Shown: positions 1 through 31,310, counted from the first letter of the stretch. The stretch is 64,000 nt of DNA from Raillietiella orientalis (GCA_036172245.1 JAYWIR010000040.1:310001-374000); one strand, 5' to 3'. The notes: generated by a model from the letters alone, not told the origin. Made by a program: numbers and translations.

Positions 1-2400
1 CGCAAGGACGTGGCAGCGGGCCCTGACAGTGTACCCATCTCTCACTATCAGCGGTACTTGCATGCCTACCTGCGTTTGTTCCACCAGTTGACCCTCTGCA
101 TCCGTGAAGAAGGAAGACTTCCACAGTCCTTCTACGAGAGTCGGATGAGATTGTTGCCAAAAGGAGGCGACCTCACGCAGGTCGCTCAATGGAGGCCAAT
201 CTCGATCCTGAACTCGGATGCCAAGTGGTTGGCGAAGATCTGGTCCAACCGCTTAGGCAAGGTCATGTCGAGGCTCATCTCTCCGGTCCAAACGTGTGCA
301 GTCCCTGGACGTCACATGTCGGACAATGTCAAGTGTGCCCAGGCCACCGTCGGACTCAGCCAATACGTCGGCGAGAATCTGGCGCTGGTGTTCACTGACA
401 TGGAGAAGGCTTTCGACTCCATCGACCATAAGATGCTGCTGATGGTTCTGGAAAAGCTCGGACTTACGGAACACTTCAGCAACTTCGTGAGAATGGTACT
501 CCAGAACCAGTACTGTTGAATCAAAATCAAAGGCCAGGAGGCGGCAGCAATCCGGATGGAACGGGGAGTCCGGCAGGGCGATTCGTTTAGTCCTATGCTG
601 TTCGTCATCTACATGGAGGCGTTGTGGTCCTTTATCGAGAAGAGCGGACGACTGCAAGGCATAACAATAGATGGCCAGCGTCTTACTTATCTGGCATACG
701 CTGATGATCTACTCTTCTTTATCAAGGGAGAGAGAAATCAACGAGCGTTTCTTTATGTGGTAGACCTGATGGATCAAGGCCTCGGTCTAAAGAGCAACGC
801 CCATAAAAGCCAGCTCTTGCCCGTTGGAATCCTCGATCTCTCCACTCTAGCAAGGAGAGGATTCCGAACGGTGGACAAGGCCAAGTACCTGGGTGTCTAC
901 ATTGGCGACGTCTCCGCGTCGAAGCTATTGTGGACCGAGATCCTAGGGAAAACGCCCAAGGAAGCAGCCAAGTACACCCGAACGGACCTTGGAATGAAGC
1001 GAAAGGCCAACATATGGAACGAAGTACTCCTTCCAAAAGTGCTCTTCGGGGCGGCCTTCGCGAGGATAAACAAGGACACTACTAGGGAGTTCGACAAGCT
1101 GCAAAGAAAAACACTCTGGGGCCACTATCGCCCAAGAGTAAGACTGAAACCCCTGTGTCGTCCCAGGGAAGAAGGCGGTTCCGGGATGAAGTCGCTTGCA
1201 CACTCCATAGAAATCATGGATACGCGACACATCCTGGACATTGCCACTCACTGGGATGACTGGCCGTATGCGGCGCACAGGGCCTACGCGTTGTTGCTTA
1301 ACAACTCGAAAGGCCTTATGACTGCGCTGCTAGGCCGAGCAGGCAAATGGAACAAAATCGACCCCACCTGGACGAGGAAGCAACGGCTGGTGCGGAAGCA
1401 CCAAATCAAGATCGTGCCGCGAAGCAGGGAACTCTGGCAGGACGAGTCCATCCTGGTGATCCCTTGGTTGCTTCCTGTCCCGCCGGACACGAGAAGCTGG
1501 ATCTACCAGCGGTCCAGTGTTACCCTACTACAAATCCAGGAGTGGAGGCGAGGAGGCTACCTACATCAAACACGTATACTTCGGTATACAGAGATGATGT
1601 TAGGAAGGTTTACCCACAGGACCCGCGAAGTGTGGTTCAACCACAACGACTTCGCATGGTCGAGGGTAACCAGAACAAACCTCCAAAGGCTTATCAAAGA
1701 AAACGACCGTGACACCAGTGCCCTCCAGGAAGCCACCGAACGCTACGGGAGTGAACGGTTCAACCTGTTAGCGATCGGCACGACGCTCTGGAGGAGTGAC
1801 CTTCCGCCGGGCACCCAGGATGACCTCCTCATGTTTGATCACGGAGGAATCCAGAGTGGGTCCCGATTGCAGCACTTCACAGGAAGACGGGAAGACCGAG
1901 ACTGCGCAGCATGTGGAGACGACGACACGAGACTTCACGTCTTGACGTGTCCCACACTGCTGCATGACTGGCTGATCCTGAAAAGGATCATAGGACTTAC
2001 CAACAAGTCCGTTATGGAGATCCTCGCCGGGATGTTTCATGGGGATGGTAATGTTCCCTGTTACAATCCCATGGTGAGGACGACCATAGCCCTCTTCATC
2101 ACCGCCATACTTGTGCGGTGATGGAAAATGAGGAAAGCCAGGAGAGTCGCACCACCGATGGAGATCCTACAAGGGCTCTTGAAGAGGGAAATCGGCATCA
2201 GGAACTGCGGGAAGATCCACGCCTGGACGTACCGATTCATCCTGAAGAGGATCCAGGACGACGCCCGGGACCATCCAGCTGGAATTCCCCCCTGAAAAGC
2301 AGAACTCTAGTGCAACCCAAGGACCCCCAGGTGCAAAATGTTTGTATTGAGTGAATGAGAGTGCGAATGTAAATTTTGTATTTTTATAGAAAAATAAACT
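1..2400 (+). mobile_element. Tx1/L1-like non-LTR retrotransposon A, ORF2 3' part (RT + C-terminal CCHC) and 3' UTR; decayed
   Basis: ORFs 10..519 and 556..2121 are in one frame split by TGA at 517-519. RT motifs GPDS, LLPKGGD, WRPISILNSD.K, DMEKAFDSIDH, GVRQGDSFSP, YADD, KYLGV and C-terminal CAAC..DTRLHVLTC. The frame continues past a second TGA (2119-2121) to about 2295, followed by an AT-rich UTR. Confidence 0.9.
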
Positions 2401-2696
2401 TACCCCACCCCTTGTGGGACTTGGGGAAACCTGCCGAGTCGGTGAACTTGCTTCGCGGCTCAAAGTATTGTGCGCTCGACAACATAATCAGTTAATTGTG
2501 CTCGTGTGTGCCCGAAGAGGGGAAGTTTTCCAGACGAAACTACAAAAGAAGCGGCGAGGAGATCGCGGCAAAAGACCTGCAGTGGTCCCGTGCAGCAAGA
2601 CCAGCTGCCAGGATGCAGGCACCTGGAGGAGGAGTGGAGAGACCGTCGTCCCCCATGGAAGCCATGGAGGTAACGTGCGGCAACGGCGAGGCGGTG

Positions 2697-2918
2697 GCAG
2701 GCATGCCGAGGATCGCGCCCGCAGCAGGCTTTGCTGCGCCGGCGGCGGCGACGCCAAGGGTCGTGCCCGCGGCGACGACGGCGGAGGTCGTGCCCGCGGC
2801 GGCGATGCCGAGGATCGTGCCCGCGGCGGGGAAGGTTGCGCCTGCGGCGGCGATGCCGAGTGTGCCGCCCGCGGCGGCAACGGTGGCGACGTCGAGGGTT
2901 GCGCTCGCGGCGGCGGCG
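2697..2918 (+). repeat. Degenerate GC-rich coding minisatellite (about 24-30-bp unit) in ORF1 of element B
   Basis: Repeats of gcggcggcgatgccgaggatcgtgccc-like units encoding AAAMPRIVP / AAATPRVVP / AATTAEVVP. Confidence 0.8.
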
Positions 2919-4953
2919 TCCCAGGCAGAACCCGCAGGCGTCCACGCGGTTCAGGGCGAGACGCCATCTTGTTCGGCTGCGGCGTCGCAGCCCTTTTCTT
3001 ATGCGTTGGTGGCGGCTGGACAAGTGGGTGTCCACCCACCTAGAAAATTCGGAAAGCCGCTATGCGGCAAAGTCCAAAAGGTGGATCGGACAATCGTGGA
3101 TTTAGGGCCGAATGTGAAGCCCATCATTTTCAAGACTGAGCTGATCAAATTCAATAATATCAGGAAGGTGTATCTGTCCCTCGATAAAACGGATATTAAT
3201 TTTGATCGCATAAAAGCGATCATATCGGCAAATAACGGGTTCACAGTTTTTATAGACTGTGCAAATATTAAAGAGCGATTGATCCAGAAGGAGATCAATA
3301 TACAAGGGAGGATGGTTTCTGGTATTGGCAAAATGCCATACACAACCGTCTTTCTGAACGGCATCTTCATCCTCACACCGCAACTAACGGTGTAGAATTT
3401 TTGGAGCTGTATGGGGAGGTTCTGGACCTTGAATTCCAGAACTTCTCTGGAAATATATTTTCTGGCGACATGATCGCCGAGATGAAGATGAAGGAGGGAG
3501 CTGTTATACCTGGGTTCGCGTTCATTGACGAACAATCCCAGGGAATGAACGCACGCTACCGGCAACAACCGGTATTCTGCACCGGGTGCAAGCAGTTCGG
3601 CCACAGGGCCGGCATTTGCCCAACATGCCGTTGCTTCCGCTGCGGCAAAGAAGGACATCAAGTCCTAAACTGCCCGCAACCGGAGGTGGCTCCTCCTGCA
3701 AGAAGCACAGACATGCTAAATGGAGCTGTCCGGAATTCGCCAATTGCAGAAGGATTCGAGGACTCTCTCCCGTGAGAGAGGGAAACATCAAGGAGGCCGA
3801 ACAGCCTCAGAAGTTGGCAGGAAGGCCGAAAAAGACGAAGGAAGCCGTCCATGTATCGACGGACGGCTTCATTGAGGTAGGAAAGAAAGGAAATAGGAGG
3901 ATGCTCGTCAAGGAGAAAGAAACCCCTCTTAATCTAGAAGGAGCAGCGCAGGAAGGCGTAAAGATGGAGGTAGCGCAGGAACGTGCGAAAGAAGGAAACC
4001 AGGAAGCCACTCCAGTGTCGCAGGAGGACCTGCAGTCCACGGAGGAGTTGGCAACACTAGCGGAGGAAGTTAAGGAGGTGCAAAGCGGGCCTCAGCAAGA
4101 GAAAATCTTGAGAACATCTGCAATGCACACGAGAAGGTGAACCAGGTTGTGGAGGTTACCGAGCGCGAGACGCTAGAAGAACAGCTTCTCGACGTAGAGG
4201 CGAACTTCTGCGCCAAGGTCGAGATAGAAGCGCTAATTCGCAAATTGATCGCGCGAGCCGAACACTCTACGGAGGAGGCGGAAGTAACCGACCTCACCGG
4301 AACAGAGAGTGACACCGGCAGCGAGAAGCGCGCTGCTTCTTCATCGTCTGGAAGAGCACGCTCTCTCAGACAGAACCAGCTTAGGAAGGCCAAGAAATAG
4401 GTCTTCCCCTTTTATGGCCTCTTCCCTATCGACCGCCAGGAGGCTGAACATCGCCTACTGGAATGTAAACGGTGTGGTCGACCAGGGAAAAAGAAAAAGG
4501 ATTGTGCGGACCATCGCACAACAAGACATTGTGTGCCTGCAGGAGACCCACAAGATGGGTCTCGAGATTAGTCACCAAATGGAACGGCGATTCAACGGGC
4601 AGGTGTTCGTCAGCGAGGGAGAACGGAACACGCAGGGTGTGGCGGTCCTAATCAAGAACCACTTGGCCCCCACTATTCTGGAAATGTTCTGTCCCCAACC
4701 CGGAGGAATCATCGGCTTGCGACTGGCCTGGTCCGCTACTGTTCACCTCATCCTGGTGAACGTGTACGGGGAGCTGAGGCTGAAACATCGTTGTGTGGAG
4801 GCGCTGCATGCAGCACTCCGTGAAAAGGTCGCCCCCAAGGACGTCGTGATTGTTGCTGGCGATCTCAACATATTGGATGAGATCACTCATTCCCAAGAAG
4901 CCAGAGGAAGGACGGCGTATCGGCGGTTATCCGACGAGTTCGGACTGGTGTGG

Positions 4954-5047
4954 NNNNNNNNNNNNNNNNNNNNNNNNNNNNNNNNNNNNNNNNNNNNNNN
5001 NNNNNNNNNNNNNNNNNNNNNNNNNNNNNNNNNNNNNNNNNNNNNNN
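4954..5047. other. Assembly gap (N run)
   Basis: Run of n characters. Confidence 1.
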
Positions 5048-5185
5048 AAGAGAAATCTGGCAACAGATATCTTCTGCATCCAGTACGGCAATCAAAGTCG
5101 ACACACGTCTGAAGATATCGTAGATGCCTTAGAAAGGCATTATACGGACCACTTTCGACGCGGACACCTGTGTCCAGCTACGGTA

Positions 5186-8100
5186 GTAGTGCCCTAGGAG
5201 GAGGCGAACGGCGGACGCAATTGTTGTGCGCTCCGTGGATAGGCAGTTTTTTGTCTGGTGCTTCGTGTGTGTTTCGCGGTTGTTGACAGGCAGAAATGCC
5301 TGTGTACGCCGCAGTTTCAGTGAGGGAGGCGGGAAGACCGCGACTCCCAAACCAAAGGAGGTGGGATCACGCCCCACCACTACTTCTGAACCTTCCCCCA
5401 CCACTAAGGCGAGGGCCTGGAGCGCGGTGGCAGCGGCGGAAACGCCCGTTGTCGCCGCCGAAATACAATCCTACATCCAGGAGGGCTACAATCCGGCCCT
5501 CCTGTACAAGGTAGGAAATTTATATTCCCCGTTGAGGGCGCGAAAGTTCGGCAATGCCATCAAAAAGATGGGCATTGCCGACTATGAAATTCTTTGACTC
5601 TCAATACGGAGCGGTGGGCAGTTGGCGGAGCTCATCTTCAAGGATGCAGCTCTTACCCGCAAAATGCTCTGCACGCCCGTACAATTTGAAGGCAGGAATT
5701 TACTCCCCCACAAGGTGGACCACTCCATTGTGGTTCACCTAACTGGGACAACAGTGCGGATGGATGAGAACGCCATCCGCGCTGAACTTGAAAAATTCGC
5801 AAGCGTTTTCGCGATGTGGAGAAAGCCCAACACCTTCGGAGTGAATGGTGCATTTAGTGGGCGAGTAGGCGCGCGCGTGACGCTGCGAAAAAGCGTGCAG
5901 CTTCCCCACAAGCTCCAAATTGGCGACGAGTTCGTCGACATTTGGTTTGTGGGGAAACCTAAATTCTGCGGCAATTGTAAGACGTTCGGGCACCTGAAAA
6001 AGCAGGGCCCGGACGCAGTTTGCCCAACGTGCGGCGCGAAGGGCCACACCAAAGTGGTGTGCCCGATGAACGTCGCTCCAACGCCGGAACTTCCGCAAAA
6101 GAAGGAAGGGAAGGCAAAAATAGTGATAAACCCCACAAAAGGGGATCAGCCGTCGGCTTCGACAAAAGTCGCGCAGCAGTAAAGGGGCTCGGTACAGGAG
6201 CTCCCGGAAAAGACTGCCGACGAGGAAGGCTGGCAGCTGGTCACCCGTAAAGTAAAAATCGTTAAAAAAACCGCGCCCGCACCGGCGAAAGTGGTGAAGG
6301 GCAAGGGGAAGGTCGCGCCACGCCCAACAATCAAAGCGTGCAGCGTGGCCATCAAACGCGTGCCGGCGATCGATACTCGCTCCGCTGACGGATCGATGCG
6401 ACGTGACGTCACGCCAGCTGTTCAAGCCGCCGCCGCGCGAACGCCGACGCCGCGACAAAGTCGCGAGCCCAGCGTGAGCAGCGACGACCGGGACTTCAAG
6501 AAGGCGGCGGAAGAGTTGGCAGCCATGCTCCAGCAGCCTCCCAAGGCCCAGAAGAAGGCCTTGAGGCGTCCGGCTGAGGCGAAAGGACCGGAAACTTCCG
6601 AATCCGAAGCCGAATCCGGCAACGCTCCGGCTGTCGCTCTCCCGAAGCGTAAAGCGGGCCGCATGGTGGGCAACCCGCGGCGCTCCGCACCTCCACCGGC
6701 GGAGGAGGAAATGCGGTCTAACCATGACGACGGGGAGGCGATGTCCGCGAGGTCTCGCGACTCCTCGGCGGAGGCGGTCCAAGCCAAGCAGGATCCTCCA
6801 ACCACCACCACAACCACCGACGGACCACCTCCTTGCGAGGAACAGTCCGTCGCAATGGACACACAACTCCCGCCAGCTGAACAGCAGGCGGACGGTTAGC
6901 AACCATAAACACACCAACGCATGGACTCTCCTCCTGCCGACGACTGCGCGTAATCTGTTGGAACGTCAACGGGTTGCGCGACGACGGCAAGAGGAGAGAA
7001 GTGGCCGCCAGCCTGCGGGACTTCGACCTGGCGCTTCTGCAGGAGACGCATGTGCTCCACGCAGAGGCCCAGGAAATCGAACGGATCGCAGGCGGGCGGC
7101 TCATATACCAAAACGGGAGAGACCGCACCCGCGGTGTGGCTTTTATGCTCAAGCCAGCCGTCGTTAATGCGCTGCGCGACGTGCACTTCGACGGGGAAGG
7201 TCAAATCGGGCAGCCTGTCACCAAGTGGTCCGACGCGATCGACCTCGTCGTGACCAACGTGTACGCGCCCGGCACGAGCCACAGGCGCGGGGAACGCACT
7301 GCGTTCTTCGAAGGCCTGCGGCGAGATTGGCTGGCCGAAGCAGACATGCGAAAGGCGCACCTCATTACCGGGGACTTTAACGTCCGCCTGCTGGCAGGTG
7401 CGCCCGACATTCGCGCACAGCTGGTCAACGAGATGTGTGCTGCCATGCACGCGCGCAACTTGTTGGCCGGTGACGCCGGGACGGAGACGAGGATCGACCA
7501 CATGTTCCTCGACAACCACCTGTGTTCGCGGGTGGGAAATCGAGGGGCAGTGCCATCCGAACTTTCCGACCATCCCCGGCTCGTGCTAGAAATACACCTG
7601 CGCGGTAGAGGTCCACCCTCCACAGCGTGGCGTTTGCCAGGGGACTGGTTGCGCCTCGCAGGAACAGCGCAATATCTTCGCTCGTACTTACAAGGCTTCC
7701 ATCTGCAGTCGCTCGCGGACCGGGACGACTTAAAGAACTCAGTCCGCGAGTTCTGCGACCAGTTTCCCCTGAACCGTCTCCCTCCAGGTTTCGGCGAATT
7801 GCTGAGGAACGACCGGGCATACCATCACGCCCGTCTTTACTCTAGGACTCCCGACGTTGGACGCCTGGCGGAGTATAAAGCTGGGGCTGAGCGACAGACC
7901 CGGCATTCCGGTCGGCCAGCTTGCTGTACGCCCAAGGCCAAGAATGCTCAGCTCCAGCGAAAATAGACCGCATCCTGCGTGACTTTTACTTCTTCTTGTA
8001 CGCGCGTAGGACAACAGAGCGCGCCGTCGCGCAGCGCTTGCTTCCGCAAGGCGCTCCCGCGTTACAGGAGGAGCAGAAACATCAACTTGAGGAGCCTTTC

Positions 8101-8880
8101 TCGATGGCGGAGATCATCTCCGCCATCGGAAAGCTCAGAAAGAGGAAAGCACCAGGGAAAGACGGTCTGCCCGTGGAGTGCTACCAAGGCTTCGTGGCGG
8201 AGATGGCCCCCCTGGTGCATCAGCTTTGCATGCTGATCCGAGAACAAGAGCACGTCCCCAAATCGTTCCGGTCAGCTAGAGTACGTCTCCTGCCGAAAGG
8301 AGGAGACAATCGCAACGTAGGCAACTGGCGTCCCATCACAGTAGTGAATGCGGATGCGAAGTTGCTTGCCAAGCTTTGGGCTGAGCGACTGGGACGGGTG
8401 GCGGAATCCGTGGTGAGTCCGGAGCAGACATACGCTGTTCCAGGACGATCCATGGAGGCCAACCTGTTCCTCGCCAGTACATGGTGGCAGTTGCAACAAA
8501 GCGAAGACCAGGGAGGTCAGGAGAATCCTGGATTCTCCTCTGACCATGTAGGGGACGCCCTTTATGGAAGAGCCGCGCCTGGAGCCCTTGCGGTCGCAGT
8601 CGATCTGCGTAAAGCGTTCGATTTCGTCGACCAGGAACTCCTTCTGGAGCTCCTGGAACGCTTGGGATTCCCGGCCGTCTTCCGGGCTTGCCTGCGCTCC
8701 TGCTGGCGCTTCGCTCTAATAAACATCACTTTTAGCGGGCGGCACGTGTACGGCGTGCCGGTTCGGCGTGGCATAAGGCAGGGTGACAGTCTGGGCCCCT
8801 TGCTCTTCAGCATCTACTTCGAGCTGGTGCTCAGGGCATACAGGGAGACTCTGGCAACCCTGCCAAGCTCATGTCCCGGC
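5186..8880 (+). mobile_element. Tx1-like retrotransposon C (second family): 5' UTR, ORF1, APE and RT, truncated just before YADD
   Basis: ORF1 in one frame 5226-6899 with stops at 5595 and 6180 (CGNCKTFGHLKK, CPTCGAKGHTKVVC). APE WNVNG/LQETH/GDFN/SDH at 6950-7600. RT APGKDGLP, WRPITVVNADAK, DLRKAFD, GIRQGDSLGP at 8100-8880. Confidence 0.9.
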
Positions 8881-10861: not shown

Positions 10862-10958
10862 AATACTATTTACCGGATTGCATCTGCTGCGCAGTTACGC
10901 AGTATAAATACACACTCCACACAACGTACATCTAGTCCTACCTTTAGTGAATTTCAAG

Positions 10959-21175: not shown

Positions 21176-21189
21176 GAGTAACGGAATAG

Positions 21190-21607: not shown

Positions 21608-22830
21608 ATCCTCGCCGTCGCCCTGAACCTTTTAGTCGTTTTCCGTCGGGATCTCGGAGCTGGCCTTCGCCTTGGTGGCGGAAGTTACCTCCTTCGCTGC
21701 AGCTAGTGCTGGTAGCTTTCTCCTTTTCTTTGACGCGCGCTTTCTCGCGTTTCGGGCGGACGTGACACGGACTAAATAGTGGGGGCACACCCGACTACTG
21801 TATCCCGTTTCCTTGCACTTCTGGCACTCCACGTTCGGACACCTCATCTTGAAGTGTACAACACTGCTGCAGCAGCCGCAGAACCTCGGTTTCCCCACGT
21901 ACCACACGTCAATGGATTCACTGTTACGCACAGTTTGTAGGGAAACTTGCAGCCTCCGCGAACCGTGACTCGCGTTGCAGCGAGACCTCCCAGCATACCA
22001 TCGTAATCTACGAACCAAGTGGGCTTACCCCACAGCGCATTTTTTTTTTCTTTTTTTTAATAAAAGCCCCGGCTCACCCGGATGAAAAAACCCACAGCGC
22101 TTATACGGTTGCAAATTTATCAACTTCGTTCCGGACAGACTCCTTCGTCATGCGGAACGTTATACCGGTCAGTTGAATGATTACCGACCGGTCCTGTGTT
22201 ACCGGGAGAAGCCTCCGACTTCCCATCAGTACAGGGGTTCTCAGGAGTCTCTGCACAAGAGTTGCCTCCTGCAGATTACCTCCACGAATTGACCGCCGCT
22301 TCCTATGGACATAGCCAGAAGCTCCTCTTTAACGCCCACCTCGCATCGCTTGCGAGAAGGCACGCGCGCTGTCTGGAGAATGCAGCCCACCTACCTTAAA
22401 TAGGAGGGGTGGGTTATACTCCTCCTCCAGGTGGGCACGCATCTCCGCCATACCAGCAGGCGTAGGTGCGACAGCCACGGCTTTCCAAGCCTTGGGTGGG
22501 GCCGGGGACGCATCAGTGGGCTCCACTTCCATCTCCTCCGTTGGCGATGAGGTCATCGCCTCCAGTTCTCCACTGGTTGTGGTGTCAGGCATTGCTGCCT
22601 AAACCAGCACCGACAACATACACAAACGCAGGAAAACGGAAACTCAGGAACGACCATAGAACACGTCCGCTCGGGGCTCCGGATTCTCAACGACTGGGAC
22701 CCCATGAAGGCTGCGGTCCGCGAGTACTGCGAGCTCCGCTTGAAACGCCTGCTCCCCGAATTTGGAGTTTCCACCTAGATACGCGAGGGGTATTAAACTC
22801 TGCAAAACGTGGTAAGAGACCCTACTAATG
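21608..22830 (-). mobile_element. Tx1-like retrotransposon F (family C): 5' UTR and ORF1, 3'-truncated
   Basis: 22329..22592 (EEEYNPPLLFKVG) and 21632..22018 (DVWYVGKPRFCGCC..CQKCKETG) are homologous to C ORF1. Confidence 0.85.
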
Positions 22831-22844
22831 GCCACTACAACACC

Positions 22845-23910
22845 GGACCTGCCGAGACGCCGGGTCGCAGACAAGCGTGACTCCTCGGCAGTCAAAATGG
22901 ATGGGGGGAAAAACAAAAAGTAAAAATAAAGAAAACCAAAAAAAAACATACTTTCAAGGATTAGGAAGGGTTCACTGTTCATTGGGAGGACGGAGCATCC
23001 TTTGAAGGATGCCCTCGAGGTCCTTCAGCTCCTGTCCCAGCTGACGTCATCCCGCCACTCTCTCTATAAAGCGAACAGCATAATGGATGACATCCATGTC
23101 GCTTGCATCAACTTAGTCGTGGGCATCACTCCAGACCGTCACCATCCCTCGGATGCAGCAGTGCTGCCGGGGCTCCAGCTAGTCACAGGGCATCCTGAAC
23201 GAGGAGAAGCCGAAAAACGTCTCTGGGCTGACTGCCCACCGGGATCCGTAGCGAGGAACCAAGACGCTCCCAGAGAGGTCGAAGGGCAGCAAAATCAACA
23301 ATAAGGTGGGAAAGGGTTCCATTCCGCTCCACGCACCTGATGCAGTGAAGATTCACTCGACCCCGCGTCCAGTGATGGCGGCGTGCGTTGCAGGGTAGAC
23401 CCCAATGCAACAGGAGAAGCGCCGAGTCCTGCCACTTCAGGGGCAAGGATCCTCGAACCGTTTGAAACCGGTGGCCACTTCAGGTCATCCATCGGGATGC
23501 CGAGCAGCTCGCCCTATCTCAGTAATCCTCGCGGGACGACACTTCGGGTCATGGCGTCGGCCAACTGTCCCATGTCCAACCGCTCATCTTCTCTCTGCGG
23601 CAGGAGAATTGCCACCTAGGCATGCGGCTGCTGGGGAGCGCTCTCCACGGGAAGGGCATCGCCGTAGCTAGGGGGTCGTCTCTGCCCATGTGCTCCTCGC
23701 GGGACACTGCGGTATCTTCCGCAGAGTGCAGCGAGAGTTGGCGCCGCGTTGCAGGCAGTTCCACATCTCGTGGTTCCTCTCATTTAGCTTCGCCCACGTG
23801 CCAGTAGTCTCCTCCAGCCATGTGGTGGAGTTGGCCGGACTGCAGACCATCCAGCCGTTCTCCTTAGTTATGATGGCTATGCTTCCAAGAAGGCCGCATC
23901 TGCAGATCTG
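22845..23910 (-). mobile_element. Tx1-like retrotransposon G (family C): ORF2 C-terminus and 3' UTR
   Basis: PLKWQDSALLLLHWGLPCNAR..CIRC..TLSHLIVD; T-rich UTR on the minus strand at 22900-22970. Confidence 0.85.
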
Positions 23911-24002
23911 TCGAAAACCCAACGCTCGACAGCCCCTGCAGGAGACAATCAAGAAGCCGCGGAAGTTTCAGTGGGCTTCCTTGACCCCCTCTGCCAACCC
24001 CC

Positions 24003-24490
24003 TATAACCCCGTTGGTGGAACGGGGAAAACAATCATGGCGAAATTCCTTTATCCGAAAAAGGGTGCCATTTACATGCACTCATGCAGGAAAGCAGACGC
24101 CGCCCATATATACAACGGAGAACGTATCATCGTAGTTGTCTTCACCAGAGACACACAAGAGACTGTCCAGTATGGCTTCATCGAAACTCTCAAAAATGGA
24201 ATCATATTCGATTCCAAATACCAAGCTTCCATAAAATACTTTCAAACGCACACATCATCGTTTTCTGCAACTGAGAACCAAACTACGACAAAATGAGCAA
24301 CGACAGATGGACAGTCAGGAATATTTCCAAAAATGATGCCAACAGACTCACTTCTTGGATGATGGATGAAGACGGTGCCATTCTCCCTTGGGATTGCACT
24401 TCAAGCCCTAGTACAGCGTAAGCCCGCGACTCGCCTGAGTCGTATCCTTCCACATTGTCACCTCCCTCCTTTTTTTTGATGAAATAAACA
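24003..24490 (+). pseudogene. rep: CRESS-virus Rep helicase half, copy 4
   Basis: YNPVGGTGKT..HSCRKADAAHIYNGERII..LKNGIIFDSKY; 3' end closely matches copy 1. Confidence 0.9.
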
Positions 24491-25421
24491 CTTATCTCAC
24501 ATATCTCATTTTTTATTTGTATAAGCCTGTCTATTAGGTGTTTGAATACAACATAGTACTTGTGGGTTACTCTGTATATCGGAAACCCGTTTGTCATTCG
24601 CCCGTTCTTTGGACGAATTCCTGCTTGGCAACGTTCCTTCAACTCGTCTGGGATATCTACACCAGACATATGTTTCATGATATGCACACGGTTGAACCAA
24701 ACATTCCCGTCTGTTTCATAATCCAGCGTATTCCCATCACTACACTCTATCCAAGGACATCGCCACGATCCAACACAACACCGTCTACCGACACTCTCTT
24801 CGTCAAGTATGCTCCTCAAACCACGTACACCAAAATAACGAGCAAAACAACCAGACGTCTCTTCGTGCCCCCCCCTATCACAGCTTCCACATGATCATAA
24901 GGTTTTCCATACATTGATGTGAAATGCTCGCCCTGAGGCGCAGATTGATACAACATATTCCTGTATGACACTTTCATGCTAAACTGTTCCGCCATATTCC
25001 CTGTTGTCAAACCCAAAGACATGGGCTCCACCTTTGTCGCGCAACCCTTTATCTTCACATATCTATAGCGCTTTGCAAATTCTGCTAGATCTAACTTTTT
25101 TAACAAAGCACGTATTCGAACATAAAATTCCAAATATGTGAACATCCAACTACAATTCACATGGTCGCCGTCTGCTACACGTAGCGAAGAATAATTAGAT
25201 GCTCCCTGCGTCATATCCCTCACAACTACTCGCAAACAACGACCTACACGCCAATTAGGATTTCTCTATATCCTAGGTCGATGGCGACGCAAATTCCAAC
25301 GGCGCCTCCTTTTGAACGTGCTATATCCTCTAGGACGACGCGATAAACGACGCCGCTTCACGCCATACGACGATCCAACACGTTTCCTCTTACGCGAGTG
25401 AACCGCACGAGGTGTTGCCAT
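24490..25421 (-). pseudogene. cap: CRESS-virus capsid, full length (about 300 aa), one stop and frameshifts, copy 4
   Basis: ATG at 25421 gives MATPRAVHSRKRKRV..FKRRRRWNLRR; continues as ORFs 24816..25235 and 24283..24819; C-terminus YYVVFKHL matches copy 1 YYIEFKHL. Confidence 0.85.
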
Positions 25422-26289
25422 TCCGCTGCTTGACAGCGTACTTTGCCAACGTGCTGTCTTCCTTCAAGAACAATAGGAGCAGCAACTAGCGAGCATTCTG
25501 GGCAGTGCCCTACCTCGTCCGAGGCAGGAGAAAACCGCTGAAGGCATGGACGACTCCGGAGTTAACGGACGCCGCTACCCCGAGCGTCCCATCTAACGGA
25601 CTTGTGCGCTCGGGAGAGCTGCTCGGCATACATCCAGAAAAGGTGAAGTGGCCCCCAGAGTGCAGGGATAGTCAAACCTTGACCCTGGAATGACAGGAGA
25701 CGGCGCTGCTAGTGTTCCATTGGGGACTCCTTTGCAAAGCACGCCTCTTCCATTGGACATCAGGGACGGTGCATGCCAATTGTGCAGGGTGCGGGAACAT
25801 GAGACCTTCCCCCACCTTATCATAGAGTGTCGCCTTCCGACTCATTAGGGATCGACTGTCGGCGATCTTGAAAATTACCGGGAGCGACCCGAAGGACATT
25901 TTCCGTTGCTTCCAGATGCAGGACGCCTGTCAGCAGCCGCGTGCGGCAGTTCTCTGCGTGGGATCCTGGCAAAATGGATTGCGTCCAAGAGAGGACATAA
26001 CAGCCGGAACGCCAACCACTGGAAGGCTCTCAACATTGAGAAAGCTTCCCGATGCTCTCGGCTAACATCACTACGTCCGCAAATTGTGTGCATCCTGAAC
26101 AGGAGGCAGAGAACCACTCCGAGCGAACAGTGATCCCTTCCAGCCCTCCCTTCCCCAAAAACATTTCCCTCCTTCGGTAGCGGCGCGTCCAGATAGGCAG
26201 AATCACGTGTTCTGCCAGCACTAATTCAACAAAACGAGACCTTTTTATAAAACCTTAATTAAAAAATTTCATAAATAACCCGGCATATT

Positions 26290-26570
26290 CGGCTAATACA
26301 TACCGGAGAGTGACCAGCATTACAGGCGTTTTTCGCCAACCAAACAAGATGCTCCAGACTGCCAGACCTGGCGCTCAGCTCTCGCCCAGTATTCTGCACA
26401 CCGGCTGACATCCGCGTCTCGAAAACGTGCGCGCATGCAGGAAGGTCCTGCTGTTGGCCACGCCTTCTCTAACGCCACGTGGATGCCTTCGCAAGGGAAA
26501 CCGTCCGCAGAACTCGCGGACCGATCTGTTTAGATTATCCCAGTCCGCGAGCAAGAGCGGACGGGTGTTT
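26290..26570 (-). mobile_element. Inverted Tx1-like ORF2 fragment (APE-RT linker)
   Basis: LADWDNLNRSVREFCGRFPL..HARTFSR matches element C LADRDDLKNSVREFCDQFPL..HARLYSR. Confidence 0.75.
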
Positions 26571-26574
26571 ACTT

Positions 26575-29500
26575 CGCTCGTGCGCCGGTTGCGGTTTTTC
26601 GCTTTTCTGATGTGCCAGTGGATTCGTTGGTGGCTAGGCAGGAATGCCTGACCACCACTAGTGATACAGAGGGGGCAAAGTCTCTGTAGCCCCAGAATCA
26701 ATGGATGTGGGGGCAAACGCCCCCACAGAAGCGTCTCCCTCGTTAGGGAGGAGCTGGAGTTCCGTGGCTGCGGCGCCATCGCCGGCGGCTGCGGCTGAGC
26801 TTAAGGCTTAACTGGAGGAGGAGTACAATCCCCGCTTCTCTATAAATTAGACAACCTGTATAAGTTTGAGTGCGCGCGGTTTCTCGGAAGCGATGCACTC
26901 TCTGCAAGTTCCGCAGGGGGAGCTCTTGGCGATGACCATCAGGAGCGGTGGACAGTACGTTGAGGTGATTTGCAAAGAAGCAAGTCTTGCCCAGCGTCTG
27001 CTCCGTACACCTGTTCCTTTGGGGAATCGCCGGCTCCTCCCCATCACGGAGGATAGATACATCGTGATCCACCTCCTCGGTATAACCTTTCGGATGGCCG
27101 AAGAGGCTGTCCGAAAGGAATTACTAAAATTTGGCACCGTGCACGCGCTGTGGAAAAAGCCGATTCCGTTTTGGGAATATGACGTTCTCAATTGCGGTCT
27201 GGCTACCGCGCGAATCACGGTCCGCGAGGGTTGCTCCTTACCAAACAAGCTGGAGGTCAACGGCGAGTCCGCTGACATTTGGTATGTTGGTAATCCGCAT
27301 TTCTGCGGGCATTGCAGCACGTCAGGTCACCTGAAAAAAAGGTGCCCCCACTTGCAGTGCAAGCAATGCAAGCAACCCGGGCACTTCCGGTGTGCCCGCA
27401 AAATCAAGTACGCGTCGCGTCCGCAGGGAATGCGAAGCGCACGGCGAAGAAATTAAGTTTTAGTAGCGCAAGCGCGAGCCGCCGCTAAGCAAAAAGCTAT
27501 CGTGCCCCAGGTGAAGGTCAGCTCCGAGATCCCGTCGGAAAACGCGGCCAAGGTCGAGGAGAACGGCCAGGAACCTGGATGGCAGGTAGTGCACTCCAGG
27601 AGGCCGAAAAACCTCAAGGTACAAAAAAAAAAAAATACCGCGAAACGCAGGGAGAATTTGCCGCGTCGCGAAAAAATGAAACGCATTCCTGCGGTCGAAC
27701 AGAGAGGCAAAAATGAACTCGTTACTGCCGACTGTCAGCCCTCCGGGAATGTGATCACGGAGGATATCGACCCGGTGGTGGCGTCCGTCGTTGAGCGCAT
27801 ACTCGATGACGTCGCTTTTGAGCGAGCGGCGGAGGAGCTCGCTGCGTCCCTGCAGCGACCCTCCAAAGCCGCGAAAAAGGCCTTAAGGGATCCGAACTCC
27901 AAGAAGAAATCCGAGAATTCGGAATGCGATGCGGAGGCGGAAAACAGCCTGCGGCATCGCGGTCCCCTGCCCGAAGCCATGTCGCATGACGAAGGTTACC
28001 CGCAAGCTTATCTCCTTCCAAAAGGGAGATAACCCGGGGAAGCGAGGGTGCGAAGAACGTGAGGAACTCCCGAGACTCGTCCAACGAAATGACCCCACGC
28101 TGCGACACCGGATGGATGGAAGCGACCATGACCGGATCGTGTTCGAGGTACGACTACGCGTCAGGGGTCCCCCGTCTAATGCGTGGCATTTGTAAGCGGA
28201 CTGGCTGAACCTGCCAGAGGCCGCGGAACATATACGCGGATTCATACGAAGATTCACCATTCATACGCACCAGGACTGGGATCGCCTCAAGAGCTCGGTC
28301 CGGTAGTTTTGCGACCAGTTCCCTCTGCATCGCCTGCCTGCGGGGTTCGGGAAAAGGCGTCCGTAACGAGACCGTATTTACACTCTCGACATTACGCGCG
28401 AACTCCAGACGTATGCAGGCTAGCAGAATACTGTGCAGGAGACGAGAGGCAGACCTGGCAATCCGGGTCGGCCAGCTTGCTGGACGACCAGGGCTCGGAG
28501 CACTCGACTCTCTCACAGGTAAAAGGATTATTGAAAAAGTTCTACTCTTCCCTGTACGGGCGAGCGCCTCTGGAACGGGATGTCGCGCGACATCTGCTTC
28601 CAAAAGGCGCTTGCGCCATCGGGGAGTAGATGGAAAGCCTCGACGATCCTTTCACGATGGGCGAGAAAATCTCCGTCATCGGAAAGCTTAAGAGGCGCAA
28701 GGATCCAGAGGAGGACGGCCTGCCCTCTGAGTTTTTTCAACGCTTCGCGGAAGAGTTGACTACCTTTGTACTCCATTTGACGAACTTGATCCGAGACGAA
28801 GGCGATGTTCCCACCTCGCTCCGTCAGCCAGGATGAGACTCCTTCCCAAGGGAGGAGACCTCCGTAAGTTAAGCAACTGGCGTCCGATTATGATTGCGAA
28901 CACAAACGCCAAGTTGCTCGCCGGTCTATGGGCTGCGAAACTGCGACAGGTGGCCGTTATCATAATTAGCCCGGAGCAGACTTACGCTGTTCCCGGGCGA
29001 AGTACGGAGGCCAACCTGTTCTTCGCGAGCACATGATTCCATGTGCAGGGGAGTAATGAAATGAAGGGACGATCAGTAGACAACCCAGCTTTGGGGATGT
29101 CAGCCGTACAGGGAATGGGCACCCAGGTGGGGAAGGCAGCCCTTGCAATCGCAGTCGATCTCCACAACAACAGGAAGAGGGTTCAGGATACCATCACATA
29201 GGCAAAGAACTGGATGTTGGTGCGAAGCAGCAGAATGGGGTACTCTCATACTCTCAGGGACTGTTATACCAAAGATGGGAAGCACCAAGGATGATGCAAG
29301 GACTCCCGTCTTATCTTCATCCAGGTTTCTTCCCCTGAAGTGGCTTCCCCTGTTGCATTGGGGACTACCCTGCAACGCTCGCTTCCACCGGACGAGTAAA
29401 GCCCGTGTGCCAGGTGCGGGGAGCGGGAATCCCTATCCCTTGTTGACTGTGCTGTCCTCCGACTCCTGGTAACGTCTTGGGACTACCCTGGGGATACCGG

Positions 29501-29900
29501 TAGGCATCACCCCCAGAGACGTTTTACGGCTTCTCCTCGTGAGGGACGCCCTGCAGCCAGATGCAGCCCTGGCAGCACTCTGCTGCATCCGTGGCATCGT
29601 GGCGGATTGGAGTGAAGCCAAGGACCAACACCAAGTGAGGGACGACTTCCGGTATGCTGTTCGCTTCCTGGTGAGAGCAACCGGATTGCCCCGGCTGAGT
29701 GGAATGCAGGACCTCGAAGGCATCCTGCGAAGGATGGACCCTCCAATCGGTGGTCCGTGATCCCTTCCCCTCCCTCCAAGCTTTTTGTTTTTCCTTACTA
29801 TTTTAAAATCCAGTTATCCCTTTTCCTTTGCTACTCCACAATGATGCTTTATTTTCTGATCTGTTTGTCCTCCTTCGCCCTCCTTTTCCGACACGAGGAC
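26575..29900 (+). mobile_element. Tx1-like retrotransposon I (family C), end to end but with large internal deletions
   Basis: ORF1 at about 26644-28000 (CGHCSTSGHLKKRC); APE end SDH at about 28120; RT start to AVDLH at 29165; C-terminus LHWGLPCNAR..RMDPPIGGP stop at 29760; T-rich UTR. Confidence 0.85.
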
Positions 29901-31310
29901 CATTGGCCAGTTACTTTAGAGTTTGCAGGACTCTGAGGAGGTCGAGTTTCATACTTGGCGTGGGCCATTCTTTGGTATGTTTACTGTAGAAAAAGTTTCA
30001 ACAGATTTCCAAACTTCACTTTGAACAAAGATACGAGCTCTTGCAGGTACTGTTGTAGGGGATGTTCCGTAGCCTCATTATGAAAGCATTCTTCCTTTAG
30101 ATAAGATACATTCTTTTAGCAGTCACCGGGTGGAGACAAATAGACACGGCCGCTCTCGATGCTGTCTCCAAAGCCAGAAGGGAGAAGCTATGGAGAATTC
30201 TAAAGACGTTATTCTCTGACTGAGACCTGCAGGTGGTTCTCACACTGAGCTCTGCAAGCTGAGCATAGGAAGCAGCAGACTTGGTAAGCTTACTAATAGT
30301 ATATATGAATGGTTGTTTTGAATTCCCGGATCCGAATTCTCCATTTGAAAAGCGCTTCTTTGCAACTGCTTATCCCAAGCAATCTTTCCCCTCGTAAGCT
30401 TGGAATCTGAGCTTGTCGAGCTCTGCCCCGGAGAAAAACTTCTACGGTGAACACAGAACTTCAAGAACTGACAGAAATCAGTTTTGGAAATGTTGTACAT
30501 GTGTTACTCTTGCATGCATGATCCTTGCAATGCTCCTCGCAATGTATTATTTGAATGGAAAACGTAGAGTGGAGTGGAGCAAAATTTCAAAATCCAAACG
30601 AATCAAATCTAAAACTGAACTCAGCTGTAAAAAGCAAAGTCATCTTTGGTATCTGCAGTTTGCATTACAATAGATTGTTTACAAGAATCTGACAAATGAA
30701 AACGTAATGCTGTTTCTGATGTAGTTCTTGTCTGCTTGATACATCGCAAATGTTTCCAAAGAGAATGTCGGCCGCATATGATTTCTGAGGCCAAATGCAA
30801 CAAGATTCTCTGGTTCCAATTATCTATATCACATTCCACGAACAGTAATTTGTAAGCATTTTTGTGAATGTAAAACGGAAGCTCTTAAAGTATGAAATGA
30901 CACACCAAGTTGCTAAATACTTCAATATCAAATGAAGTCGTGTCGTAGTTTTGTCTCACATTACTCAAATTTGGAAATGCAATGGCAAACGTGTCCCCTA
31001 AAGTGGAGATTTGGGGAAACATACAGAAAGGCAATACTATGAACCAGGTATGTTTCAGTATACGCCAAACAAAAATCTTTTCTTCAATATAAACTCTTCT
31101 GCAATAGGCATGATAGGGCAGTCAAATAAATGTGGAAACAATCCACTTGAGTGTAGGTCAATCCGTTCTTTTTCTCACAATGGAGTTCATTATTGAGTCT
31201 GTACTTTCAAGCTAAGGCAATAAAAGTGTGCAAAGCATTTCACTCAACGTGGAAATCACCATGTTTCCTTATTTACGTACACGACACTCGAAGACAACGC
31301 CTTTCGGCTT

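What the first reader, a model, noticed from the sequence alone, without database searches (positions are those of the whole stretch)
1..30400. A 30-kb spacer-free 'trap' locus that repeatedly captured a ssDNA virus among retrotransposon fragments
Seen: essentially every base to about 29.9 kb belongs to a retrotransposon or viral fragment, butted or nested, in both orientations. Four diverged copies of one CRESS virus are present, all with rep on + and cap on -. The boundary to ordinary host DNA is sharp. Known: non-retroviral endogenous viral elements concentrate in TE-dense small-RNA (piRNA) clusters in arthropods. Inference: the locus is an insertion hot spot or heritable archive of invaders, and possibly a source of antiviral/anti-TE small RNA. 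The shared viral orientation is suggestive only (3-4 events).
Basis: partly seen in the sequence, partly recalled or inferred. Interest (0 to 1): 0.8.

Follow-up and report, generated by a model that had tools for sequence, protein, structure and literature searches.

The report
Virus fossils in a retrotransposon island
A 30-kb pile of broken retrotransposons in an animal genome holds four decayed pieces of a previously unseen small circular DNA virus; the pieces came from separately evolved viruses, but whether the site works as an antiviral small-RNA archive could not be tested.

Summary
Bases 1 to about 29,800 are a G+C-rich nest of non-LTR retrotransposon fragments. Direct evidence covers 83% of it. 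It borders A+T-rich host DNA sharply.

It holds four pseudogenised genome pieces of one new CRESS-DNA virus lineage, about 5.9 kb in all:
- A: 10862-12633
- B: 12634-13471
- C: 19483-21170, probably with cap fragment E at 15696-15822, split off by an R2-like insertion
- D: 24003-25445

All have rep on the + strand. Cap is present in A, C/E and D but not in B.

New results:
- The copies differ mostly at synonymous sites (dN/dS about 0.07-0.11, pS 0.62-0.97). They diverged as viruses, not by duplication within the locus.
- They entered as DNA: a 46-47-nt rep intron, the ori hairpins and both genes are kept.
- A's left end lies exactly at the canonical Rep nick site (TAGTATT|AC).

"Repeated capture" is therefore supported, although one complex integration from a mixed infection is not excluded. 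The piRNA-cluster reading is untested: no genome is held and no sequencing run was listed. The arthropod host is not established either.

Verdict: a new member of a known kind (viral fossils in transposon-dense loci), of moderate interest.

The parts
1..2118 (+). LINE fragment: reverse transcriptase and C-terminal CCHC region. It runs off the left end of the window.
   Evidence: RVT_1 E 7.6e-13 and 6.7e-12; tblastn to LINE ORF2 proteins at 1-1326; intact 533-aa frame
3272..5109 (+). LINE fragment: ORF1-like zinc knuckle and APE endonuclease. It holds the 94-N assembly gap at 4954-5047.
   Evidence: zf-CCHC and Exo_endo_phos E 3.7e-13; gap
5598..8937 (+). LINE: ORF1-like region, APE endonuclease, and reverse transcriptase cut off inside RT.
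   Evidence: Exo_endo_phos E 5.7e-16, RVT_1 E 5.2e-17; paralogs at 26.9-29.2 kb
8855..10861 (-). LINE 5' part on the minus strand: about 90-base leader, ORF1-like region, and the first ~80 residues of the endonuclease. Its 5' end abuts viral copy A.
   Evidence: Inverted paralogs of 5598-6113 and 6887-7111; zf-CCHC
10862..12633 (+). Viral copy A. It starts at the Rep nick site (right half of the ori hairpin). rep exon 1 is 10959-11294 with one stop at 11076, the intron is 11295-11340, and exon 2 is 11341-12054. The cap C-terminal two thirds lie on the - strand at 12087-12633 with one frameshift.
   Evidence: Viral_Rep E 3.3e-11; tblastn E 6e-47
12634..13471 (+). Viral copy B: about 15-20 bases of intergenic DNA, the whole ori hairpin at 12647-12681 (nonamer TAGTATTAC on the - strand at 12658-12666), and rep up to just past Walker A. 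The intron is 13101-13147. There are four stops.
   Evidence: Viral_Rep E 3.8e-13; hairpin -11.2 kcal/mol, z -6.7, 0 of 200 shuffles fold as well
13472..15543 (+). 5'-truncated LINE (mid-RT to the ORF2 C-terminal zinc motif) butted against copy B.
   Evidence: 80.6% identical to 8438-8886; RVT_1; paralog of 25448-26165 and 46753-47316
15696..15822 (-). Cap fragment E (about residues 86-130 of cap). Probably the other half of copy C's cap.
   Evidence: BLASTP to D's cap E 3e-10; nucleotide test reached by 5 of 300 shuffles, and no similarity beyond 15822
15823..19482 (+). R2-like retrotransposon with restriction-like endonuclease: N-terminal zinc-finger region 16238-16945, RT, and a 539-aa intact frame 17410-19026. 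It probably splits cap of copy C/E.
   Evidence: Solved R2 proteins E 7e-18 to 5e-12; Atlas R2 and RT clusters 0.96-0.98
19483..21170 (+). Viral copy C: cap N-terminal ~85 residues on the - strand (ATG at 19746), a 242-base intergenic region, a decayed ori hairpin at 19989-20012, and rep nearly whole. The intron is 20461-20507. There are three stops. A + strand RT fragment cuts it off.
   Evidence: Viral_Rep E 1.4e-8; tblastn E 1.5e-40
21170..22544 (.). Two LINE fragments: an RT N-terminal piece on + (21170-21623) and an ORF1-like piece on - (21632-22544).
   Evidence: RT motif read by eye; paralogs of 5598-6065 and 10256-10687
22842..23940 (.). Repeat of unknown class, an inverted copy of 47075-48140.
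   Evidence: 86.9% identity over 1078 bases, with parts 97-100% identical at protein level
24003..25445 (+). Viral copy D: rep from Walker A to its end (two stops, two 1-base deletions), the whole cap on the - strand (ATG about 25421, arginine-rich N-terminus, at least one stop and one frameshift), and about 25 bases of intergenic DNA.
   Evidence: tblastn E 4e-23
25448..29189 (.). LINE fragments: ORF2 C-terminal piece on + (25448-26165), an endonuclease piece on - (26353-26551), and ORF1-like/APE/RT on + (26851-29189).
29329..29813 (.). The last repeat fragment of the island. The composition boundary to host DNA follows at about 29.8-30.6 kb.
   Evidence: 71% identical to 47567-48058; G+C profile

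Best explanation
The region is a transposon island: a nest of non-LTR retrotransposon fragments (APE-type LINEs plus one R2-like element) in an A+T-rich animal genome. Genome pieces of a new CRESS-DNA virus lineage became fixed in it and then decayed.

The virus (inferred):
- A circle of about 2.3 kb.
- A spliced rep of about 350 codons, with HUH nuclease and SF3 helicase domains.
- A cap of about 300 codons on the opposite strand, with an arginine-rich N-terminus.
- An ori hairpin whose TAGTATTAC nonamer lies on the cap-sense strand.

Shown:
- The four copies come from genomes that had diverged under purifying selection, so there were at least three or four distinct viral donors.
- They entered as DNA, not as retro-copied mRNA.
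- One end is exactly the Rep nick site, so at least that piece derived from a nicked rolling-circle form.

Inferred:
- Integration was by end joining, or by LINE-linked repair at breaks, in an insertion-tolerant region.
- Later LINE and R2-like insertions cut and separated the copies.
- Nothing requires the locus to have a function. Passive accumulation in a transposon graveyard suffices.
For: - Viral identity. Pfam Viral_Rep hits in A, B and C (E 3e-11, 4e-13, 1e-8). 7546 Rep relatives at E<=0.001 among 1.84 billion representatives, the best 150 at 33-47% identity. Solved circovirus-type Rep nucleases at E 5e-10 to 1e-5. Motifs CFTL, HLQGY, YCTK and GGVGKT read.
- Hairpin. -11.2 kcal/mol, z -6.7.
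- Separate lineages. rep pN 0.11-0.27, pS 0.62-0.97, dN/dS 0.07-0.11 where computable. Cap A against D: pN 0.20-0.30, pS 0.67-0.77, with third-position excess only in the true frame.
- DNA origin. The GTAAG...CTAAC-like...TAG interval of 46, 47 and 47 bases restores the frame in all three copies that hold it. It is 48-61% different between copies. Relatives' proteins align straight across it.
- Nick site. A and B are identical through TAAATAGTATT and unrelated after it. The chance that any of 8 ends falls on that one position of about 2300 is roughly 0.4% (my arithmetic).
- Pseudogenes. 1, 4, 3 and 2 stops in rep of A, B, C and D, plus frameshifts in D.
- Nesting. C's cap ends and E's cap begins at adjoining codons of D's cap, on either side of the R2-like element.
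Against: - No reads or whole genome were available, so germline status, contiguity across the junctions and genome-wide density are unverified. One assembly gap lies at 4954-5047.
- A and B are joined directly. The same orientation of all four copies fits one complex integration as well as repeated ones.
- Decay differs only modestly between copies. 4 of the 5 stops in A plus B lie in B's 215 of 706 codons, one-sided about 0.03 (my arithmetic).
- The E-C link rests on a short, 45%-identical stretch. BLASTP also extended weakly into 15823-15929, which would imply overlap rather than abutment. The nucleotide test did not support that extension.
- Cap has no detectable relative and its fold could not be modelled.
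Confidence: 0.6

Rival explanations
1. The island is a small-RNA (piRNA) source locus. Its long transcript is processed into guides against the LINEs and against the CRESS virus. Successive captures of diverging viral lineages were kept because each added new specificity, so the locus is a heritable archive.
For: - The architecture matches what is described for such clusters: dense, nested, fragmentary transposons with viral pieces among them. Sources: ter Horst et al. preprint 10.1101/396382, passages; abstract starts of 10.1101/127498, PMC5497376 and PMC7161354.
- 81% of the TE evidence and all four rep pieces share one strand.
- The copies differ by 25-34% in DNA, too far to stand in for each other as guides (inference).
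Against: - No expression or small-RNA data exist for it here (one search listed no run).
- The orientation bias is not significant: 12 of 16, about 0.08.
- The host lineage is unresolved, so a cluster-type piRNA pathway cannot be assumed.
- Passive accumulation predicts the same anatomy.
Confidence: 0.25
2. There was one integration event. A chimeric linear multimer, built by illegitimate recombination or template switching among co-infecting related viruses, entered once. LINE and R2-like insertions then pushed its parts apart.
For: - A and B are joined directly at a non-homologous junction near 12633, cap interior to about 15-20 bases before the ori hairpin.
- All pieces have the same polarity, as copy-choice would give.
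- B, the LINE at 13472-15543 and E lie in a row with no host DNA between them.
Against: - It needs three or four viruses with saturated synonymous divergence in one cell at one time.
- Stop density differs between A and B (about 0.03 one-sided).
- D lies 3 kb further on, behind other transposon fragments.
Confidence: 0.2
3. The mechanism was LINE-mediated capture. A LINE reverse transcriptase reached the 5' end of its RNA during target-primed reverse transcription. It then jumped onto the 3'-OH end of Rep-nicked linear virion DNA and copied it, making a LINE-virus chimera.
For: - On the + strand the junction at 10861/10862 reads antisense LINE up to its 5' leader, then the complement of the virion strand starting from its 3'-terminal base at the nick. 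This is the polarity the model predicts.
- End-to-end template jumping by R2 and LINE reverse transcriptases is established (recalled, not read here).
Against: - Only one junction of eight fits.
- The LINE's true 5' terminus is not known.
- That LINE lacks its 3' half, which target-primed synthesis should have made first.
- Simple end joining of a nicked, broken replicative form gives the same junction, with a 50% prior for the orientation.
Confidence: 0.15
4. One old viral insertion was duplicated inside the locus and the copies then drifted apart.
For: The copies lie close together in one orientation, and the DNA identities of 66-75% are compatible with age.
Against: - Neutral drift would spread differences evenly over codon positions. 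Observed counts are, for example, 39/20/93 (A-B) and 80/59/169 (A-C), with dN/dS about 0.07-0.11.
- The copies share no flanks and have different end points.
Confidence: 0.03
5. The island is an assembly artefact or contamination: free viral reads mis-joined to repeats.
For: The region is repeat-rich, has one N gap at 4954-5047, and no reads were available to check it.
Against: - All four copies carry stops or frameshifts and are truncated at different points.
- Four diverged versions sit in one contig, and the junctions lie in uninterrupted sequence away from the gap.
Confidence: 0.05

Closest known systems
Endogenous viral elements in transposon-dense piRNA clusters of mosquitoes and other arthropods (ter Horst et al. 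10.1101/396382, passages read; Whitfield et al. 10.1101/127498, Palatini et al. PMC5497376 and PMC7161354, abstract starts only)
   Same: Several viral fragments lie among nested, fragmentary retrotransposons in a gene-poor block, with a predominant orientation.
   Different: - Those cases are mostly RNA-virus fragments beside LTR elements, with small RNAs demonstrated.
- Here the virus is a ssDNA virus and the neighbours are non-LTR elements.
- The host lineage is unresolved and no small-RNA evidence exists.
Endogenous circovirus- and cyclovirus-like elements of invertebrates (Liu et al. 2011 PMC3198968, passages; Dennis et al. 2018 PMC6069186, passages; Metegnier et al. 2015 PMC4573495, passages)
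   Same: - Rep-derived pseudogenes of CRESS viruses in animal genomes.
- Many copies per genome, attributed to multiple invasions by similar viruses (about sixty copies in salmon louse and Varroa, per Liu et al.).
   Different: - Here four copies lie within 15 kb, with cap, ori hairpin and intron preserved.
- Independent origin is shown by codon-position analysis, not by unlike flanks.
- One end is at the nick site.
- In the passages I read, those papers do not mention clustering in transposon nests or ori junctions. The terms 'stem-loop', 'retrotransposon' and 'tandem' had 0 occurrences in PMC6069186, and 'stem-loop' had 0 in PMC4573495 and PMC3198968.
Circoviridae, cyclovirus-type (type II) genome plan (recalled from ICTV and Rosario et al.; not read here)
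   Same: A small ambisense circle with rep and cap diverging from an ori hairpin, the nonamer on the cap-sense strand, a spliced rep, and an arginine-rich cap N-terminus.
   Different: - The Rep helicase half is only 33-47% identical to the best 150 of 7546 relatives.
- Cap has no detectable relative.
- The inferred size of about 2.3 kb and cap of about 300 residues are larger than typical circoviruses.
- The nonamer reads TAGTATTAC, the circovirus form, but on the cap strand.
Geminivirus-related DNA in Nicotiana genomes (Bejarano et al. 1996, recalled; not held; mentioned in Martin et al. 2011 PMC3187698, passages)
   Same: Integrated pieces of a rolling-circle ssDNA virus. As I recall, the integrated units end at the ori nick.
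   Different: - That case is a plant host, with tandem amplification of one or two integrations.
- Here the donors are diverged lineages in a transposon nest.
- The nick-site detail for Nicotiana is from memory only.
R2 retrotransposons (solved R2 proteins 9nl2, 9nl3, 9dou, 8gh6, 8ibw matched)
   Same: An N-terminal zinc-finger region, RT, and a C-terminal CCHC plus restriction-like endonuclease region in a single ORF.
   Different: It is not in a 28S rRNA gene. No rRNA or any other Rfam family is found in the window, and the element sits in a viral cap gene.

Membership tests
CRESS-DNA virus Rep (HUH nuclease + SF3 helicase) | HUH nuclease domain with motifs I, II (HxQ) and III (YxxK) | tested here: met
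   Pfam Viral_Rep above the curated cut-off in A, B and C (43.7, 49.9 and 35.3 bits against 26). Solved Rep nucleases at E 5e-10 to 1e-5. CFTL, HLQGY and YCTK read.
CRESS-DNA virus Rep (HUH nuclease + SF3 helicase) | SF3 helicase with Walker A and B and motif C | tested here: met
   7546 relatives at E<=0.001, aligned over the helicase. GGVGKT, IIVVD and FSNW read. Pfam RNA_helicase is only sub-threshold (17.4 bits against 21.5).
CRESS-DNA virus genome | Ori hairpin with nonamer NANTATTAC in the loop, between the 5' ends of rep and cap | tested here: met
   B has an 11-bp stem with loop TAAATAGTATTAC, -11.2 kcal/mol, z -6.7. C has a decayed version, z -1.5.
CRESS-DNA virus genome | Capsid gene encoding a jelly-roll protein | tested here: inconclusive
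   In favour: opposite-strand ORF, arginine-rich N-terminus and purifying selection. Against: no Pfam, PDB or IMG/VR relative and a fold model with mean pLDDT 35.
Circoviridae (family membership) | Rep groups with circoviruses or cycloviruses in a phylogeny, and genome of 1.7-2.1 kb | tested here: inconclusive
   No named references were available for a tree. Identity to any representative is at most 47%. The inferred genome of about 2.3 kb is larger.
Endogenous viral element | Disabled viral genes joined to host or transposon DNA in one molecule | tested here: met
   Stops and frameshifts in all four copies. Junctions to LINE fragments at 10861/10862, 13471/13472, about 21170 and about 25445.
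Endogenous viral element | Germline presence and vertical inheritance | not testable with these tools
   No genome is held and no run was listed.
piRNA cluster | Production of 24-32-nt small RNAs with 1U bias from a long precursor | not testable with these tools
   No run was listed.
piRNA cluster | Dense, nested, fragmentary transposon content | tested here: met
   83% evidenced coverage, with fragments of at least 13 elements.
piRNA cluster | Strong common orientation (uni-strand type) | tested here: inconclusive
   8 elements on +, 4 on -, 1 unknown, plus 4 viral copies on +. That is 12 of 16, two-sided about 0.08 (my grouping and arithmetic).
R2-clade retrotransposon | Single ORF with N-terminal zinc fingers, RT, and C-terminal CCHC plus restriction-like endonuclease | tested here: met
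   Solved R2 proteins at E 7e-18 to 5e-12, covering the RT/thumb and C-terminal regions. Weak zf-C2H2. Motifs read by eye.
R2-clade retrotransposon | Site-specific insertion in 28S rDNA | tested here: not met
   No Rfam family reaches gathering score anywhere in the window.
APE-type non-LTR retrotransposon (LINE) | Exo_endo_phos endonuclease followed by RVT_1 in one reading direction | tested here: met
   6881-7963 and 7891-8937; also 4288-5109 and 28121-29189.

The most novel reading that the evidence does not exclude
The island is a heritable, strand-biased archive that recorded successive lineages of one evolving ssDNA virus. Each capture was retained because the earlier ones, 25-34% different in DNA, no longer matched the circulating virus. 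It would work like a slow, eukaryotic, transposon-based counterpart of spacer acquisition. Entry would be favoured by chemistry at the viral origin: Rep-nicked linear genomes joined to LINE ends, with integrated copies that still carry a nickable hairpin.
Probability: 0.15. Interest if true: 0.8.

Novelty: new member of a known kind. Interest (0 to 1): 0.45.

Why it matters
Viral fossils clustered in transposon-dense loci are well documented for RNA viruses in mosquitoes. For ssDNA viruses they are mostly reported as scattered Rep fragments.

What this locus adds:
- A clean example in which independence of the captures can be shown from the sequence alone, by codon-position analysis.
- Evidence on the route of entry: DNA, with the intron and ori kept, and one end exactly at the Rep nick.
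- The genome plan of an otherwise unknown CRESS virus lineage: spliced rep, a long cap, and the nonamer on the cap strand.

If small RNAs from the island were found, it would extend the EVE-piRNA archive idea to ssDNA viruses and to non-LTR-based clusters. Without that, it is a well-preserved but ordinary transposon graveyard with viral fossils.

Tried and rejected
**Resources that were not available**
- Whole genome: none is held, so no genome-wide Rep or Cap count was possible.
- Sequencing runs: none was listed for 10801-20800.
- Earlier findings of this scan: nothing by place, sequence or words.
- Cluster look-up for names of Rep relatives: switched off.
- Bejarano et al. 1996: not held.

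**Searches for relatives that found nothing close**
- Word-based homolog search for the Rep helicase half: none at E<=0.001 among 169 candidates. The exhaustive HMMER search then found 7546 relatives.
- Close relatives of the virus: none in IMG/VR or in metagenome contigs.
- A wider profile found 13 IMG/VR contigs at 29-44% identity. None holds a cap relative; all tblastn E-values were >=0.88.
- Cap: no PDB match and no Pfam match at E<=10. The Atlas look-up did not complete three times.
- Cap fold from a two-row alignment: mean pLDDT 35, too poor for a fold search, so none was run.
- LINE relatives are only 23-31% identical, apart from one short match at 40% over 10% of the query, so the LINE clades were not named.

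**Annotation attempts that added little**
- Six-frame chunks sent to Pfam were rejected because of stops. I used stop-to-stop ORFs instead. Of the 188 ORFs of 55-94 aa, 150 were scanned. The last 38 (24696-30670) were not sent. The 150 added only one Viral_Rep hit and one weak RVT_1 hit.
- Rfam: no family in the window.
- CpG depletion as a clock: uninformative, with CpG o/e 0.69-1.14 in the viral copies and 0.85-1.12 in the transposons.

**Ideas I withdrew**
- D does not end at the ori. The apparent left stem arm at 25493-25501 lies inside a LINE ORF2 C-terminal fragment homologous to 14828-15333.
- B and D are not halves of one copy. Their 44 shared codons have pS 0.975.
- C and D are not halves of one copy. 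They overlap by about 120 codons at pS 0.87.

Full report
**1. What is there**

The window has two compositional halves. Every 2-kb bin up to 30 kb has G+C of 0.45-0.62. The next 16 kb have 0.31-0.42. In 200-base steps the fall is from 0.56 at 29.6 kb to 0.36 at 30.6 kb, and the last repeat homology ends at 29813. To the right lie ordinary genes:
- A GDA1/CD39-type nucleoside phosphatase at 39007-40337 (-).
- A SCAP-like WD40 exon at 56837-57382 (-).
- A second, smaller G+C-rich transposon patch at about 45.7-49.2 kb.

The left edge of the island is outside the window. A 94-N assembly gap lies at 4954-5047.

**2. The transposons**

Pfam finds RVT_1 and Exo_endo_phos domains and zinc knuckles in stop-to-stop ORFs of 95 aa or more (125 ORFs scanned). 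Of the 188 ORFs of 55-94 aa, 150 were scanned and added almost nothing. The last 38 were not sent.

Thirty-one distant LINE ORF2 proteins (23-31% identity, apart from one short match at 40% over 10% of the query) hit eight places in the island by tblastn, seven on + and one on -. A protein-level self-comparison shows that the ORF1-like, endonuclease, RT and C-terminal parts recur as diverged paralogs in both orientations.

The 539-aa intact frame at 17410-19026 matches solved R2 retrotransposon proteins (E 7e-18 to 5e-12). With the zinc-finger ORF at 16238-16945 it forms an R2-like element of about 3.7 kb. No rRNA or other Rfam family is present.

Adding everything up, 83% of 1-29,900 carries direct evidence: 5,868 bases viral and 19,024 bases transposon. 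The 17 remaining stretches are short and mostly G+C-rich. TE evidence lies on + for 15.2 kb and on - for 3.5 kb.

**3. The virus**

Rep relatives from an exhaustive HMMER search (7546 at E<=0.001, the best 150 at 33-47% identity) were used for tblastn. I took the full-length ones among the first 60 hits; their number was not printed. They mark exactly four places, all on + and all between 10.8 and 24.4 kb.

Reading the frames gives a typical CRESS Rep:
- CFTL, HLQGY and YCTK motifs in the nuclease domain. This domain has Pfam Viral_Rep hits and matches solved circovirus-type Rep nucleases at E 5e-10 to 1e-5.
- GGVGKT and following motifs in the helicase domain.

Between the two domains the frame shifts in A, B and C. 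The shift is bridged by an interval that starts GTAAG, holds a CTAAC-like box and ends TAG. It is 46, 47 and 47 bases long, and its removal restores the frame in all three copies. Relatives' proteins align straight across it. It is 48-61% different between copies, far more than the exons. I read it as a spliceosomal intron. The one host intron I could read, in the ENTPD-like gene, is about 50 bases (by eye).

On the opposite strand lies a second gene with an arginine-rich N-terminus. It has no detectable relatives. By position and by its selection signature it is the capsid gene.

Upstream of rep, copy B has a perfect hairpin: an 11-bp stem with loop TAAATAGTATTAC, -11.2 kcal/mol, z -6.7, and 0 of 200 shuffles fold as well. 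Copy C has a decayed version. The canonical nonamer lies on the cap-sense strand. As I recall the classification, this is the cyclovirus-type (type II) plan. The inferred genome is about 2.3 kb.

**4. The copies**

- **A (10862-12633):** from the ori loop through the whole rep (one stop) to two thirds of cap (one frameshift).
- **B (12634-13471):** about 15-20 bases of intergenic DNA, the whole hairpin, and rep up to just past Walker A (four stops). A 5'-truncated LINE is butted on at 13472.
- **C (19483-21170):** the first ~85 codons of cap, a 242-base intergenic region, the hairpin, and almost all of rep (three stops). An RT fragment cuts it off.
- **D (24003-25445):** rep from Walker A onward (two stops, two 1-base deletions), the whole cap, and 25 bases beyond its start codon.
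- **E (15696-15822, - strand):** a fifth piece that matches cap residues about 86-130 (BLASTP E 3e-10).

C's cap stops matching D's cap at D-ORF residue 29-30. E's conserved match starts at residue 31. The two lie on either side of the R2-like element. I therefore take E and C as one copy split by that element, at about 65% confidence. BLASTP also extended weakly into 15823-15929, but the nucleotide test gives no support for that: 44 and 151 of 300 shuffles reach the score.

**5. Separate captures or duplicates?**

DNA identities are 66-75%. In the rep frame the differences fall mainly on third positions:
- A-B: 39/20/93
- A-C: 80/59/169
- A-D: 19/24/56
- B-C: 55/42/114
- C-D: 25/37/70

pN is 0.11-0.27 and pS is 0.62-0.97. 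dN/dS is 0.07-0.11 where synonymous sites are not saturated. Cap (A against D) gives pN 0.20-0.30 and pS 0.67-0.77, and the third-position excess vanishes in the two wrong frames.

The copies therefore diverged while the genes were under selection, that is, as viruses. Duplication within the locus followed by drift is excluded. B and D, and C and D, overlap with saturated synonymous differences, so they are not halves of one copy.

**6. How they entered**

The intron, the hairpin, the intergenic DNA and both genes are kept. This rules out retro-copying of a spliced or single-gene mRNA.

A's left end is exact. On the cap-sense strand A and B are identical through ...GG TAAATAGTATT. B then continues with AC and the other stem arm, while A continues with unrelated DNA, matching 2 of the next 9 bases. 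As established for circo-, nano- and geminiviruses (recalled), this is the Rep cleavage position between bases 7 and 8 of the nonamer. With eight viral ends and about 2300 positions, a chance hit has a probability of roughly 0.4% (my arithmetic).

The DNA joined to it is the 5' end of a minus-strand LINE. The polarity is what a reverse-transcriptase jump from the LINE RNA's 5' end onto the 3'-OH end of nicked virion DNA would give. Plain end joining gives the same junction, and the other seven ends are at ordinary positions.

I first thought that D's right end also lay at the ori. That was wrong: the apparent stem arm lies inside a LINE fragment homologous to 14828-15333.

**7. One event or several?**

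A and B are joined directly at a non-homologous point. B, a LINE and E follow one another without host DNA. All pieces share one polarity. A single chimeric multimer from a mixed infection, later split by insertions, is therefore possible.

Against it:
- It needs three or four viruses with saturated synonymous divergence together at one time.
- Decay is uneven: rep stops are 1, 4, 3 and 2 in A, B, C and D. 4 of the 5 stops of A plus B lie in B's 215 of 706 codons, about 0.03 one-sided (my arithmetic).

I put about 0.6 on at least two separate events.

**8. Function**

The anatomy matches what the literature describes for EVE-bearing piRNA clusters (passages; abstract starts). It equally matches a passive transposon graveyard.
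- The orientation bias (12 of 16 elements) is not significant.
- No sequencing run could be listed and no genome is held.
- The host is not shown to be an arthropod.

The small-RNA reading stays an untested rival, at about 0.25.

**9. Comparison and novelty**

Multi-copy CRESS Rep fossils from repeated invasions are known in invertebrates (Liu et al. 2011; Dennis et al. 2018; Metegnier et al. 2015). Viral fossils in transposon-rich small-RNA loci are known in arthropods.

What is new here:
- The virus lineage. No close relative was found in 1.84 billion representatives, IMG/VR or JGI metagenomes.
- The tight clustering of diverged lineages, with proof of independence from sequence alone.
- The retained intron and ori.
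- The nick-site junction.

My full-text searches for the nick-site and retrotransposon combination found nothing relevant. This covers the held open-access library only.

Verdict: a new member of a known kind; interest 0.45.

Noticed in passing
window 15823-19482: An R2-clade retrotransposon with a 539-aa intact frame sits outside any rRNA gene, apparently inside a viral capsid gene. Its 3' end has no poly(A), and no 28S-like target follows.
   Followed up: partly
window 13331/13361 and 20691/20721: Two of copy B's four rep stops fall in the same two codons as two of copy C's three stops, although the copies are independent lineages. This looks like recurrent hits at stop-prone codons, but it was not tested statistically beyond a rough estimate.
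   Followed up: partly
window 8855-9112: A + strand LINE cut off inside RT meets a - strand LINE cut off just inside its endonuclease. Both are 3'-truncated, which ordinary target-primed insertion does not produce. This suggests deletion or rearrangement inside the island.
   Followed up: no
window 22842-23909 and 47075-48140: An unclassified repeat is present once in the island and once, inverted, in the small transposon patch at 45.7-49.2 kb. Identity is 87% overall, with stretches 97-100% identical at protein level, so it was recently active or recently converted.
   Followed up: partly
window 39007-40337 (-): A host GDA1/CD39 (ENTPD-like) gene has very long exons and one intron of about 50 bases. 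Its best named relative is a Hydra protein at only 38% identity, so the host lineage is poorly represented in the protein collection.
   Followed up: partly
window 2703-2914: A G+C-rich tandem repeat (periods 27, 36 and 48) lies inside the presumed ORF1 region of a LINE.
   Followed up: no
window 1-30000 against 30401-46000: CpG observed/expected is 0.85-1.12 in the transposons but 0.62 in the adjoining host DNA. The island is either young or not subject to the CpG decay seen next door.
   Followed up: no
L001-L013 (IMG/VR): In 8 of the 13 distantly related viral contigs a NANTATTAC nonamer is present. In 7 of those 8 it lies on the strand opposite rep, as in this virus.
   Followed up: partly
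P0001 (representative library): The top-scoring Rep relative carries two tandem copies of the helicase half in one 354-aa protein. This inflated its score; it is not a closer relative.
   Followed up: no
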